A stretch of 64,000 bases of DNA from Escherichia coli (GTDB lineage Bacteria; Pseudomonadota; Gammaproteobacteria; Enterobacterales; Enterobacteriaceae): NCBI RefSeq assembly GCF_009931435.1, contig NZ_CP043414.1; one strand, given 5' to 3'. Positions 61,229-64,000 of this stretch are shown here, one piece after another; positions within the stretch are counted from its first letter, which is position 1, and every line of letters starts with the position of its first letter. The notes under the pieces were generated by a model. That model ran no database searches. It saw only the letters and a program-made list of their open reading frames with translations, and was not told where the DNA came from. The translations under genes were made by a program, and so were the position numbers.

Positions 61229-64000
61229 TTATCCAGCGATAACATAACTCCTAAGGTCATTACCCGGGGCAACAGCTCGCGCTCGCGTGTTTGCCAGCCG
61301 TTCAACTTGCTGCGGTACTCGCAGAGCAAAATCAAAGAAGGTGTCTTCAATACAGCGCCAGTAGCTAAGCCCCATGTCGAGCAGGACATAATGCTGACTG
61401 CCATCGCTGAAGGTGACTGTCAGTTCTCGTCCATGCTCCGTACTCTGGTTATCCCCCGTTAACCAGCTAATTGCTCCCGGCCACGCAGGCCCCAGATATC
61501 CTTCTTCAAGTAAAGTGGTCACAACCTGCTGACGATCTTCCTCATTAAGCCACGCGTTATAGAGAGCGTCGTGTTGGCGAGAGTTGTAATCCAATTTTTT
61601 GACGCAAACAGTGAGGCTGGCACGTTCCGCCATTCCCTGTTCAACCAGCTCAGTTAAGATTTCACCTAACAAACGCGCCGTGAATGGGCTATTAAGATAA
61701 CGATCGCTGTACTCAACATGCGTTATCTCTTTGTGGCGGGTAAATGCCTGCTTCCAGCCAGCGTGCTGTTGCGTGACTAACGACCAGAAACGCGAACCAA
61801 ACCCTTCCAGCGGCCCGTCCAGTTGCTCGCAGAGGTTGATGCGCACCGCCCCGGTGGGTAAGGCGGGCAGTAAATCTTCTGCACTTAAGGTCTGACCCGA
61901 GAAGGTTTTTCCGGACGTTCCTTTAAGTGTCACTACTGGTGAGGACGCACTTTGTCCCCATAATTCACCAGGTGCAACGGTAGCGCTGTCGTCTGCGGCC
62001 CACTGTTGGCTTTGCCCTTCGCGAGTCACCTGCGCAAGCCAGCGCCCCTTTCCTTGCATGAGTTGCGCAGTGGCAATGGATTTCACTTGTAAGCGCCCTC
62101 CCGGCATCGCCGCCAACGCGGAAAGCTGATGTCTGGAGCTATCAGTTAAGTTTGCCAACGGCGTGGCCACCAGCAACTCAACATGCCCACCGGAGGAGGC
62201 AAACTGGAGCAACTCTTTAAATAATGGCCATTGGGCAAAATCCCACTGTTCCTGCGGCCCCGCAAGAACCAGCGAGCAGGAGTCATAAATCTCGCTGTTC
62301 AGGCATTGCGCAATACGTAAACTCAGCGGGTTAGTTTCAACCCGGCTACCATCGCCGAAGTACTGATATTCTGGCGCGAGGTTAAGTCGCTGCAACCGTA
62401 CATTGGTAAGCAGGGTTAATGCATGGTGACGATCTAATCTGTTGACATAATGCTGACTGTCGTAGCTGAGCAAGCAGTGGTGACAGAATTTATCGCAACT
62501 GCAATCGAGCAATTTTCTGGCGTAATTAAAGACATCAGCCCAATGGTCGATCAATTGCACTGCATAACCTGCACCACCCGCATTATTGTCGTAAATGAAG
62601 ATGGAATATCCGGTATAGCCATTGATATCGCGCGCTTGCTGCGTCGTCACGCCCAGCTCAGTATTTTCGATACCCAATTTATGCGCTAACCCTTCACGCA
62701 AAGCGACCGCAAGGGATCGCGCGGCAACCTCATCACGGATCAACAGGCCATTATCATCATTGAGTTGCAGCTCAACCATATCTGTACGACTGCTATACCC
62801 CAACCACAGATCTTTATGCACATGACCGTGGCACAATTTATTGCTCCCCTGACGATCGTTACTGCCCCCTCGCAACAGGTAATGCGTATTTTCCCGCTCT
62901 GGGTTCTTTAGATTTTCAGGGGTACGCTGGGGTTGAGTTTGAGATTCTGCCCGACCACATGAGAGGCAAATTGCGTAGCCGTGCCCAAATTCCCCTTCAC
63001 TGAAGTGGAACAATTCCCCACTATGGCTAAAACGGTAACGTCCTAGCCCAGCATCGGGTAAAGAAACCCACACCGAAGACGGTACAAGAACACGTGGATC
63101 TTTCCAGGGAAGTTGTGCAGGCATGGATACATCATTATGTGCCTGATAACGAATATCTGTCGCAAAACCAACAGGCTGTAAATAACGCTTCACATCAAGT
63201 TGCTGTATATCCGCTTTGCAGTGACTACATTCGACAGGATGGGTAGCACTGGTTGCCCCCGCACCACATTTACGGCAATGCCAGAACCACGGAATATGAT
63301 GATCGCCTGACAGCTCCTGCCCGCTGGCAAGTACCTTGCCAAGCATAATGCCCGAGGAACGATATACTTTTCCGCCCAATACCACATCTGCACCAGGCGC
63401 ATACTCGCGTAATGCTGTAGGTAGATCACGGCTGGGCAATTTTTCAATACGACGAGAAAAGCTTTCTCCCCCTTCATTAGGGTCAGCCTGAGTAGCTTTT
63501 ATTGCGCGACGTTTTTCCAGCTCATCTGCCGTCAGATAATTGAAATTGACGACACCAACCGGGAAACCATGCCCCGGCAGGAACGCTTCACTAATGAGTT
63601 TAGAAAACAGATATGCACCGCGATAATCACGAAGCTGATAAGCGATGGCTTTACCTGCTGGCGTTTCTTCCCACGCGCTGTTATCCGCTTTCAACGCTTC
63701 GATATTTTCCAACAGTATCGCAAGTTGGCTTCTCCAGCGGATATCAACCTGCTGCATCATTGCTTGTGTGCGGGTCAAGAGCTGGGTTGCCGTCAATGAC
63801 ATCAGGACGGTTCCCTGAGTAAGGCGTTTAAGTTTATCCGCTAGCTGATCGGCCTGGTTATTTAACCAATGGAGAAAACGAAGACACTGGCTCTCATCAC
63901 CTTCAAAGAACCATTTGCAACTCAGTTTTGTCGCATCAGGAACTTCAGCTCGTAAAAACAGACCTAAAACCAGGGCATTAACATGTCGTTGAACAATACT
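61229..64000 (-). CDS. DUF1998-domain protein, C-terminal 923+ aa (partial; 5' end beyond window end), probably helicase-associated
   Basis: Frame stays open from 63802 to 64000 by manual translation; Zn-ribbons (HCRKCG...CSHC; CLSCG) and DUF1998-type IYDNNAGGAGY...CSCDKFCHHC motif; own hairpin and terminator downstream. Confidence 0.75.
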   Translation of the reverse strand, partial: SIVQRHVNALVLGLFLRAEVPDATKLSCKWFFEGDESQCLRFLHWLNNQADQLADKLKRLTQGTVLMSLTATQLLTRTQAMMQQVDIRWRSQLAILLENIEALKADNSAWEETPAGKAIAYQLRDYRGAYLFSKLISEAFLPGHGFPVGVVNFNYLTADELEKRRAIKATQADPNEGGESFSRRIEKLPSRDLPTALREYAPGADVVLGGKVYRSSGIMLGKVLASGQELSGDHHIPWFWHCRKCGAGATSATHPVECSHCKADIQQLDVKRYLQPVGFATDIRYQAHNDVSMPAQLPWKDPRVLVPSSVWVSLPDAGLGRYRFSHSGELFHFSEGEFGHGYAICLSCGRAESQTQPQRTPENLKNPERENTHYLLRGGSNDRQGSNKLCHGHVHKDLWLGYSSRTDMVELQLNDDNGLLIRDEVAARSLAVALREGLAHKLGIENTELGVTTQQARDINGYTGYSIFIYDNNAGGAGYAVQLIDHWADVFNYARKLLDCSCDKFCHHCLLSYDSQHYVNRLDRHHALTLLTNVRLQRLNLAPEYQYFGDGSRVETNPLSLRIAQCLNSEIYDSCSLVLAGPQEQWDFAQWPLFKELLQFASSGGHVELLVATPLANLTDSSRHQLSALAAMPGGRLQVKSIATAQLMQGKGRWLAQVTREGQSQQWAADDSATVAPGELWGQSASSPVVTLKGTSGKTFSGQTLSAEDLLPALPTGAVRINLCEQLDGPLEGFGSRFWSLVTQQHAGWKQAFTRHKEITHVEYSDRYLNSPFTARLLGEILTELVEQGMAERASLTVCVKKLDYNSRQHDALYNAWLNEEDRQQVVTTLLEEGYLGPAWPGAISWLTGDNQSTEHGRELTVTFSDGSQHYVLLDMGLSYWRCIEDTFFDFALRVPQQVERLANTRARAVAPGNDLRSYVIAG

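What the first reader, a model, noticed from the sequence alone, without database searches (positions are those of the whole stretch)
61229..64000. Second DUF1998 protein upstream, running off the window, transcriptionally separate from the operon
The partial ORF has no stop through position 64000 and carries a DUF1998-type motif (IYDNNAGGAGY...CSCDKFCHHC) plus CxxC zinc ribbons, so two DUF1998 proteins lie within about 17 kb. It is followed by a perfect 9-bp hairpin (61195-61221) and a canonical stem plus U-tract terminator (61075-61110) before the SNF2 gene. It may be a fifth component (DrmA/DrmB-like), or a separate MrfA-like or Druantia-like module stacked next to the operon.
Basis: partly seen in the sequence, partly recalled or inferred. 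Interest (0 to 1): 0.75.

Follow-up and report, generated by a model that had tools for sequence, protein, structure and literature searches.

The report
C-terminal half of Druantia DruE
The open reading frame cut by the window edge is the back half of DruE, the helicase-nuclease of the published type III Druantia anti-phage system, next to the ARMADA II system on E. coli O-island 172, so it is real but ordinary.

Summary
On the minus strand, 61229-64000 is open for 923 codons plus a TAA stop. It carries a Pfam MZB/DUF1998 domain (E 5.7e-12) and conserved Cys clusters. A strong hairpin and a stem plus U6 terminator-like element follow it, ahead of the SNF2 gene.

It is not a new or fifth component of the neighbouring operon. 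It is residues 1182-2104 of DruE, the signature protein of Druantia type III. The PADLOC DruE3 model matches at E 6.6e-240. The fragment is 99% identical to E. coli ATCC 8739 DruE, and its sequence aligns to residues 1186-2108 of the solved EDL933 DruE structure (PDB 9TU7-9TUC).

In close relatives, druH lies directly upstream, beyond the window edge, with Zorya II beyond that. The four downstream genes in the window are ARMADA II (armABCD). This three-system array on O-island 172, and its synergy, were published in 2025-2026.

The druE-armA junction occurs in 524 of 5426 complete E. coli genomes. Distant DruH-DruE pairs on Marinobacter and Pseudomonas plasmids have no ARMADA downstream, so these are two stacked systems.

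Transcriptional separation is plausible from the sequence but untested. Novelty: already known. Interest is low.

The parts
61229..64000 (-). 3' part of druE: residues 1182-2104 of the 2104-aa DruE of Druantia type III-A, plus the TAA stop at 61229-61231. The N-terminal helicase half and druH lie beyond the window edge.
   Evidence: PADLOC DruE3 PDLC00037, E 6.6e-240, aligned to profile positions 1144-2051 of 2055. 917/923 identical to ATCC 8739 WP_000383121.1 residues 1182-2104. PDB 9TU7-9TUC chain residues 1186-2108, 2146 bits.
63218..63277 (-). First zinc-binding cluster, CxxC...CxxC: fragment C242/C245/C258/C261, which are DruE C1423/C1426/C1439/C1442.
   Evidence: Read from the translation. 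All four Cys are invariant against Marinobacter and Pseudomonas luteola DruE at about 30% identity. Zinc sites of this region are described in 10.64898/2026.05.13.724758 and PMC13192584.
62822..62968 (-). Second zinc-binding cluster: fragment C345/C348 ... C390 with neighbouring His, which are DruE C1526/C1529/C1571.
   Evidence: Translation. C345, C348 and C390 are invariant.
62471..62710 (-). MZB (MrfA Zn-binding, formerly DUF1998) domain. It includes IYDNNAGGAGY (62564-62596) and the CSCDKFCHHC cluster (62474-62503), which is DruE C1681/C1683/C1687/C1690.
   Evidence: Pfam PF09369, E 5.7e-12, fragment residues 431-510. The four Cys are invariant. C1681A/C1683A and C1687A/C1690A abolish defence in EDL933 DruE (10.64898/2026.05.13.724758, read).
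61232..62374 (-). C-terminal tandem PLD-like region (PLD1/PLDi plus PLD2/PLDa), about DruE residues 1724-2104. Conserved pocket residues are D1768 (62240-62242), D1947-R1948-Y1949 (61697-61705) and H2037-x-R2039 (61427-61435).
   Evidence: The domain assignment comes from cryo-EM papers on the essentially identical protein. Pfam itself gave no PLD hit. D587, D766, R767, Y768, H856 and R858 of the fragment are invariant among three DruE3 proteins at about 30% identity. Their match to Pseudomonas DruE D1740/D1917/R1918/Y1919/H1999/R2001 is inferred from motif pattern and spacing, not from an alignment.
61195..61221 (-). Strong stem-loop that starts 8 nt after the druE stop. It is a perfect 9-bp inverted repeat, and 12 pairs as RNA. 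No U-tract follows directly.
   Evidence: -21.2 kcal/mol, z = -4.1; unique in the window, chance expectation 0.00. The 9-bp core is unchanged in ATCC 8739, strain 24A16CRGN010 and a Klebsiella plasmid.
61076..61111 (-). Terminator-like element: 9-bp GC-rich stem, 13-nt loop, then U6. It lies 70 bp upstream of the armA start codon.
   Evidence: -15.1 kcal/mol, z = -2.2. It is missed by the strict scan because of its loop size. A Klebsiella plasmid copy carries an uncompensated G-to-A change in the 5' arm.
61097..61124 (-). Promoter-like site TTGTCA-16-CATGAT that overlaps the 5' arm of the terminator-like stem. It is a possible armA promoter, by consensus match only.
   Evidence: 9 of 12 matches; 2 sites found in the region against 1.0 expected. 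The Klebsiella copy has TAGTCA in place of TTGTCA.
44758..61005 (-). Neighbouring system, given as context: ARMADA type II armABCD. ArmA is the SNF2/DrmD-like helicase at 58147-61005. ArmB is the DrmMI-like methyltransferase at 53210-58144. ArmC is the YprA-family helicase with MZB and nuclease at 46869-53210. ArmD is the UvrD/GajB-like helicase at 44758-46872.
   Evidence: PADLOC and NCBIfam hits. MZB in ArmC. Same gene order in ATCC 8739. Named in 10.1101/2025.09.15.676423 and 10.1101/2025.09.22.677730.

Best explanation
The ORF is the 3' 2.77 kb of druE. DruE is a roughly 2100-aa SF2 (YprA/MrfA-like) DExH DNA helicase with C-terminal PLD-like domains. Together with DruH it forms the two-gene type III(-A) Druantia anti-phage system.

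The window holds only the accessory half of the protein: the extended winged-helix and OB/Zn domains, the MZB (DUF1998) domain and two PLD-like domains. The RecA core, druH and the divergent Zorya II operon should lie just past position 64000.

The mechanism comes from published work on proteins about 99% identical to this one. DruE dimers load on exposed single-stranded DNA, at 3'-tailed or forked substrates, and unwind 3'-to-5'. The OB/Zn and MZB domains close as a lid over the tracking strand, and the MZB zinc site is essential. DruH acts with DruE as a sensor and DNA-end processor. The outcome is clearance of phage DNA without killing the cell.

Whether the PLD pocket cleaves DNA is disputed between laboratories.

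Druantia III is a separate system from the downstream ARMADA II operon. The two are almost always linked in E. coli and act synergistically.

Shown here: identity, domains, conserved residues and linkage. Inferred: intactness beyond the window, and termination of druHE transcripts in the 223-bp gap.
For: Identity:
- PADLOC DruE3 at E 6.6e-240 over profile positions 1144-2051 of 2055.
- 99% identity to ATCC 8739 DruE residues 1182-2104.
- Sequence match to the solved EDL933 DruE, PDB 9TU7-9TUC (PDB codes confirmed).
- Full-length relatives score 2179 bits on DruE3, and the upstream gene scores 2553 bits on DruH3.

Domains: Pfam MZB. The Cys clusters and the PLD-pocket residues are invariant at about 30% identity.

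Context: the order zorA2B2E / druH / druE / armABCD is seen in ATCC 8739 and in a second strain.

Frequency in complete E. coli genomes:
- The druE 3' end is in 532 genomes.
- The druE-armA junction is in 524.
- At least 80% of the druH-druE block is in 505.

Modularity: DruH-DruE pairs without ARMADA occur on Marinobacter and Pseudomonas luteola plasmids.

Mechanism and naming: PMC13192584, 10.64898/2026.05.13.724758, 10.64898/2026.05.13.724313, 10.64898/2026.05.12.722862, 10.1101/2025.09.22.677730 and 10.1101/2025.09.15.676423.
Against: - The N-terminal 1181 residues and druH are not in the window, so intactness in this strain is unverified.
- No complete genome in the collection matches the window exactly. 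The best matches are 97.7-98.6% over 25 kb.
- Neither Pfam nor NCBIfam gives a PLD hit or an above-cutoff family name. The PLD assignment therefore rests on published structures.
- The papers disagree on nuclease activity and on loading polarity. For the E. coli protein, the PLD domains were dispensable and no nuclease activity was seen. For the Pseudomonas protein, the PLD pocket was essential.
Confidence: 0.95

Rival explanations
1. The protein is an obligate fifth component of the downstream SNF2-methylase-helicase-UvrD operon, as in a DISARM-like DrmA/DrmB arrangement, and not a separate system.
For: - Linkage in E. coli is near-absolute: the druE-armA junction is in 524 genomes, against 525-532 that carry the druE 3' end.
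- The genes are co-directional.
- Both systems encode YprA-family helicases with MZB domains.
- Synergy between the two systems is published.
- The block druHE plus ARMADA travels together on a Klebsiella plasmid, without Zorya.
Against: - PADLOC returns only DruE models for this protein, with no DrmA or DrmB match.
- DruH-DruE alone protects MG1655.
- ARMADA works as a four-gene system in which every gene is essential, and it still protects when druEH is deleted.
- Distant DruH-DruE pairs have unrelated downstream genes.
- A 223-bp structured gap separates druE from armA, while genes inside each system overlap or abut.
Confidence: 0.03
2. In this particular strain the gene is a truncated or disrupted remnant. 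Its N-terminus is lost or interrupted just beyond the window.
For: - The window ends inside the gene.
- Some genomes that carry the 3' end lack most of the druH-druE block: 505 genomes hold at least 80% of it, against 525-532 with the 3' end. One example has an IS2 insertion.
- Partial copies exist on plasmids.
Against: - 923 codons are open, with only 6 amino-acid differences from a functional allele.
- Every functionally important Cys and every PLD-pocket residue is kept.
- About 95% of E. coli genomes with the 3' end hold the whole block.
Confidence: 0.05
3. The protein's primary role is that of a motility-regulating DEAH-box RNA helicase. This was the 2013 reading of Z5898, and PGAP now uses it as a product name.
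For: PMC3681947 reported loss of FliC and of motility in an EDL933 Z5898 deletion. Newer RefSeq annotations name the gene this way.
Against: Later work on the same strain found no effect of druE deletion on fliC mRNA or on motility. It also found binding to ssDNA but not to ssRNA. The gene sits in a defence island next to druH. Anti-phage activity has been shown repeatedly.
Confidence: 0.03

Closest known systems
DruE of Druantia type III-A, E. coli EDL933 (Z5898; PDB 9TU7-9TUC) and ATCC 8739 (WP_000383121.1)
   Same: It is the same protein. The fragment is 917/923 identical to ATCC 8739 residues 1182-2104. Its sequence aligns to residues 1186-2108 of the solved 2108-residue EDL933 chain. The neighbours match (armABCD downstream), and the 223-bp intergenic region differs at a single base.
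   Different: There are six amino-acid substitutions against ATCC 8739. Only the C-terminal 44% of the protein is inside the window.
ArmC of ARMADA II (window 46869-53210)
   Same: It is a paralogous YprA-family helicase with an MZB/DUF1998 domain and a C-terminal nuclease region. It matches DruE HMMs at E 1e-104 to 1e-60.
   Different: ArmC carries a non-PLD C-terminus. It has a weak HNH/ZorE-like match at residues 2019-2096. It works with an SNF2 helicase, a methyltransferase and a UvrD helicase instead of DruH.
MrfA/YprA of Bacillus subtilis (PDB 6ZNP; PMC7797055)
   Same: It shares the SF2 DExH core plus the OB and MZB(DUF1998) accessory array, and 3'-to-5' translocation on DNA.
   Different: MrfA has about 750 aa, acts in mitomycin-C repair with the exonuclease MrfB, and has no PLD domains. 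The TIGR03817 score is far below its cutoff.
DISARM DrmA + DrmB + DrmC
   Same: DruE looks like a fusion of a DrmA-like helicase, a DrmB-like DUF1998 module and DrmC-like PLD domains.
   Different: In DISARM these are separate genes and work with a methyltransferase and an SNF2 helicase. No DrmA or DrmB model matched this fragment.

Membership tests
Druantia type III (DruH + DruE) | DruE signature protein: a large helicase of about 2000 aa whose C-terminal half matches the DruE type III profile | tested here: met
   PDLC00037 DruE3, E 6.6e-240, covers profile positions 1144-2051 of 2055 across fragment residues 2-921. The models for types I, II and IV score far lower.
Druantia type III (DruH + DruE) | DUF1998/MZB zinc-binding domain inside DruE | tested here: met
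   Pfam PF09369, E 5.7e-12. The four Cys are invariant and are essential in published mutants.
Druantia type III (DruH + DruE) | N-terminal DExH SF2 helicase core in the same polypeptide | not testable with these tools
   It lies beyond position 64000. In the 99%-identical ATCC 8739 protein, helicase models match residues 92-340 and 1075-1158, and the DruE3 profile matches end to end.
Druantia type III (DruH + DruE) | druH gene immediately upstream of druE | not testable with these tools
   It lies outside the window. In ATCC 8739, strain 24A16CRGN010, a Klebsiella plasmid, and Marinobacter and Pseudomonas luteola plasmids, a STY4851/ECs_5259-family gene directly precedes druE. For the ATCC 8739 and Marinobacter copies this gene scores 2553 and 1077 bits on DruH3. 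505 E. coli genomes hold at least 80% of the druH-druE block.
Druantia type III-A subtype | Two C-terminal PLD-like domains after the MZB domain | tested here: inconclusive
   The fragment's sequence aligns to the solved protein, whose authors describe PLD1/PLD2. The conserved D, DRY and HxR residues are present. However, no PLD profile hit was obtained here, and no structure comparison was run.
Druantia type III (DruH + DruE) | Confers anti-phage defence | not testable with these tools
   Published for alleles about 99% identical in EDL933, ATCC 8739 and MG1655.
ARMADA II / DISARM-like operon (as a fifth component) | Belongs to the co-transcribed, mutually dependent gene set (DrmA/DrmB-type helicase and DUF1998 partner) | tested here: not met
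   No DrmA or DrmB model matched. A 223-bp gap with a hairpin and a terminator-like element separates it from armA. DruH-DruE occurs without ARMADA in distant relatives. The published genetics treat the two systems as separable.
MrfA/YprA proper (MrfAB repair module) | Helicase of about 750 aa scoring above the family cutoff, paired with the MrfB exonuclease | tested here: not met
   TIGR03817 scores 25.4 bits for the fragment and 109.7 bits for the full-length relative, against a cutoff of 874. The protein has 2104 aa, and no MrfB-like neighbour is present. It belongs only to the wider YprA-like superfamily.

The most novel reading that the evidence does not exclude
The conserved 223-bp druE-armA spacer may be more than a passive terminator. 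It holds four elements:
- a very stable hairpin just after the druE stop;
- a small palindromic hairpin;
- a single-stranded CCCUCCC motif;
- a terminator-like stem overlapped by a promoter-like site.

The spacer could produce a small RNA derived from the druE 3' UTR. It could also act as a leaky terminator/promoter switch that sets ARMADA II expression relative to Druantia III. The conserved PLD pocket of DruE, reported as dispensable for stand-alone defence, might instead serve the Druantia-ARMADA synergy.
Probability: 0.08. Interest if true: 0.35.

Novelty: already known. Interest (0 to 1): 0.1.

Why it matters
It matters mainly for correct annotation. The window edge cuts through druE, so the fragment should be labelled as the C-terminal half of Druantia III DruE. 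It should not be labelled as a new DUF1998 protein, as a fifth ARMADA/DISARM component, or as the 'motility-regulating RNA helicase' of newer RefSeq records.

The window therefore contains one complete defence system (ARMADA II) and part of a second (Druantia III), from the well-studied Zorya II-Druantia III-ARMADA II array of O-island 172.

Two small questions remain open. The first is how transcription is organised across the druE-armA spacer. The second is what the conserved PLD pocket does, on which the 2026 preprints disagree.

Tried and rejected
- Pfam on the fragment found MZB only. There was no PLD hit, so PLD status could not be confirmed independently.
- NCBIfam returned no family above its cutoff for DruE.
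- Rfam on the spacer gave only a sub-threshold match to the alpha-proteobacterial sRNA suhB/mmgR: 25.1 bits against a gathering score of 41. I treat it as a curiosity and not as an identification.
- A scan of viral contigs with the PLD region found nothing.
- A scan of one genome per species for a 21-mer of the spacer found one other Escherichia species with an identical spacer. It also found one Bacteroidetes MAG whose flanks do not align, which is a chance match. The spacer element is therefore not detectably spread beyond this island.
- I looked for covariation in the hairpin and the terminator across four copies. There is too little variation to test. The one change in the terminator stem, in the Klebsiella plasmid copy, is uncompensated.
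- I searched the papers for transcript mapping, promoters or read-through between druE and armA and found none. The published druEH deletion runs from start codon to stop codon, so it leaves the druH promoter in place and cannot show whether ARMADA has its own promoter.
- No complete E. coli genome in the collection is identical to the window, so I could not extend the window's own sequence.
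Full report
**Observation**

On the minus strand the frame entering the window at 64000 stays open for 923 codons and stops at TAA, 61231-61229. An open frame of that length is not chance: (61/64)^923 is about 1e-19 by my own arithmetic.

IYDNNAGGAGY is at fragment residues 469-479 and CSCDKFCHHC at 500-509. Pfam places an MZB domain (MrfA Zn-binding, the former DUF1998, PF09369) at residues 431-510 with E 5.7e-12. Two further Cys clusters lie upstream of it: C242/C245/C258/C261 and C345/C348/C390.

It also has an MZB domain, at E 8.5e-13. 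The two MZB domains span about 14.4 kb, not 17 kb.

The inverted repeat at 61195-61221 is a perfect 9-bp repeat and is unique in the window, with a chance expectation of 0.00. As RNA it forms 12 pairs at -21.2 kcal/mol, z = -4.1.

The element at 61076-61111 is a 9-bp GC-rich stem followed by U6, at -15.1 kcal/mol and z = -2.2. Its loop is 13 nt. That is why the strict terminator scan missed it, and 'canonical' is slightly generous.

**What it is**

PADLOC models identify the fragment as the C-terminal half of DruE of Druantia type III. PDLC00037 matches at E 6.6e-240 and aligns fragment residues 2-921 to profile positions 1144-2051 of 2055. The DruE models for types I, II and IV score much lower, and no DrmA or DrmB model matches.

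The fragment is 917/923 identical to residues 1182-2104 of the 2104-aa protein WP_000383121.1 of E. coli ATCC 8739. Its sequence aligns to residues 1186-2108 of the chain in PDB entries 9TU7-9TUC. Those entries are the cryo-EM structures of EDL933 DruE (10.64898/2026.05.13.724758).

In ATCC 8739 and in strain 24A16CRGN010 the gene is preceded by a 1119-aa STY4851/ECs_5259-family gene that overlaps it by one base. The ATCC 8739 copy scores 2553 bits on the PADLOC DruH3 model. Beyond that lies a divergent zorA2-zorB2-zorE operon.

The four genes downstream of the fragment in the window are:
- ArmA, 952 aa, an SNF2/DrmD-like helicase;
- ArmB, 1644 aa, a DrmMI-like/type IIG-like methyltransferase;
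- ArmC, 2113 aa, a YprA-family helicase with MZB;
- ArmD, 704 aa, a UvrD/GajB-like helicase.

They correspond gene for gene to armABCD of ARMADA type II (10.1101/2025.09.15.676423; 10.1101/2025.09.22.677730). The region is the published Zorya II-Druantia III-ARMADA II array of O-island 172. Two of the papers describe it as carried on satellite-phage-like 'SPIDER' elements.

**One system or two**

In complete E. coli genomes the druE 3' end occurs in 532 of 5426. The druE-armA junction occurs in 524. At least 80% of the druH-druE block occurs in 505. Within E. coli the two systems are therefore almost inseparable.

A Klebsiella plasmid carries druHE plus ARMADA without Zorya. In contrast, DruH-DruE pairs on a Marinobacter plasmid and a Pseudomonas luteola plasmid are followed by unrelated genes: dcm-vsr-restriction genes in one and an ankyrin-repeat gene in the other. 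These DruE proteins are about 30% identical to the fragment. The Marinobacter pair still scores 2447 bits on DruE3 and 1077 bits on DruH3.

Published genetics agree with this. [quoted passage not shown] In ARMADA, deleting any one of the four genes abolishes protection. An ATCC 8739 strain lacking druEH still shows broad ARMADA-dependent immunity. I therefore reject the fifth-component reading.

**How it most likely works**

This section rests on the literature about the essentially identical protein, not on tests made here. DruE is a dimeric SF2 DExH DNA helicase of the YprA/MrfA-like family. It binds exposed single-stranded DNA and unwinds 3'-to-5'.

The part encoded in the window is the accessory half. 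Truncation constructs place the extended winged-helix and OB/Zn domains at about residues 1172-1502, MZB at about 1503-1723 and the two PLD-like domains at about 1724-2104. MZB is needed for unwinding. Mutating its zinc site (C1681/C1683 or C1687/C1690) abolishes defence. These are exactly fragment residues C500/C502/C506/C509.

DruH is variously described as:
- an infection sensor with nuclease activity;
- a 3' exonuclease that prepares substrates for DruE;
- an ssDNA-binding protein inhibited by ATP.

The role of the PLD domains is disputed. In the Pseudomonas system, pocket mutants (D1740, D1917, R1918) abolish defence and DNA degradation. For the E. coli protein, the PLD domains were dispensable against one phage and no nuclease activity was seen.

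My own alignment of the fragment with two DruE proteins at about 30% identity shows several invariant positions: fragment D587, D766-R767-Y768, H856 and R858, which are DruE D1768, D1947-R1948-Y1949, H2037 and R2039. All Cys ligands are also invariant. The pocket is therefore under constraint. The correspondence to the Pseudomonas numbering is inferred from motif order and spacing only.

**Transcriptional separation**

Three features of the sequence favour separate units. The gap between druE and armA is 223 bp, whereas genes inside each system overlap or abut. A very stable hairpin starts 8 nt after the stop codon. A stem plus U6 element follows, 70 bp before the armA start.

A promoter-like site, TTGTCA-16-CATGAT, overlaps the 5' arm of that stem. 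A terminator for druHE transcripts and a promoter for armABCD could therefore share the same DNA. This is a consensus match only.

The evidence is weak in three ways:
- No transcript mapping was found in the papers.
- The published druEH deletion leaves the druH promoter in place.
- The spacer copies compared are nearly identical, and the one change in the terminator stem is uncompensated.

I rate separation as likely but unproven.

**Comparison with the known, and novelty**

The fragment is a member of Druantia type III on every feature that can be tested inside the window. The features outside the window (helicase core, druH) are met in every close relative examined.

It is not a member of MrfA proper or of DISARM DrmA/DrmB, although it belongs to the same YprA-like superfamily.

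Newer RefSeq records name the gene 'motility-regulating DEAH-box RNA helicase'. This follows a 2013 report on Z5898 (PMC3681947). A 2026 study did not reproduce that phenotype and found no ssRNA binding.

Identity, structure, neighbours and synergy are all published. The finding is already known and its interest is low. The remaining questions are modest: how the spacer is organised and what the PLD pocket does.

Noticed in passing
window 61069-61159 (-): The druE-armA spacer gives a sub-threshold Rfam match to the sRNA family suhB/mmgR: 25.1 bits against a gathering score of 41, E about 0.003-0.006. The matched architecture is a small hairpin (ATGCGCA-ATTTA-TGCGCAT, 61136-61154), a single-stranded CCCTCCC motif (61128-61134), then the terminator stem and U-tract. 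It could be an sRNA-like element derived from the 3' UTR, or it could be chance.
   Followed up: partly
window 53781-54847 (inside armB, 53210-58144, -): About 1.07 kb of armB, roughly ArmB residues 1100-1455, does not align by blastn (default megablast) with ATCC 8739. A shorter piece, 53819-54113, does not align with strain 24A16CRGN010. The flanks are 98-99% identical. ArmB length also varies between strains (1644, 1642 and 1640 aa). This looks like a swapped or hypervariable specificity region of the methyltransferase.
   Followed up: no
window 40438-40962; L002 709-1234; L001 8946-9190: In relatives, a truncated copy of N-acetylneuraminate epimerase (nanM), about 93-94% identical to the window's nanM region, lies on the far side of the island, beyond zorE. 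The defence island therefore seems to be bounded by nanM-derived repeats next to the nanS-nanM-nanC and fim genes.
   Followed up: no
window 43594-44244 (+): A 216-aa ORF lies between armD and the nan genes. It corresponds to a gene annotated as a uracil-DNA glycosylase family protein in strain 24A16CRGN010 (L002 31745-32395). In ATCC 8739 an IS1 element follows armD instead, so the cargo at this end of the island varies between strains.
   Followed up: no
L002 8458-14772; hit lists: Newer PGAP annotations call DruE a 'motility-regulating DEAH-box RNA helicase', following a 2013 paper on Z5898. A 2026 study of the same strain found no motility or fliC effect and no ssRNA binding. The product name is probably misleading.
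   Followed up: yes
L005 (Klebsiella pneumoniae plasmid NZ_CP031815.1) 7099-30769: The druH-druE-armABC block, about 98% identical at protein level, sits on an IncFIB Klebsiella plasmid with an IS1 element upstream and no Zorya II. The Druantia-ARMADA pair therefore moves as a unit independently of Zorya. Sixteen or more E. coli plasmids also carry druE.
   Followed up: partly
window 46869-47150 (C-terminus of ArmC): The last 80 or so residues of ArmC (about 2019-2096) give weak matches to the HNH region of ZorE: PADLOC ZorE2 at E 5.7e-9 and NCBIfam anti-phage_ZorE at E 2e-4. The effector nuclease of the third system on the same island is thus echoed in ArmC.
   Followed up: no
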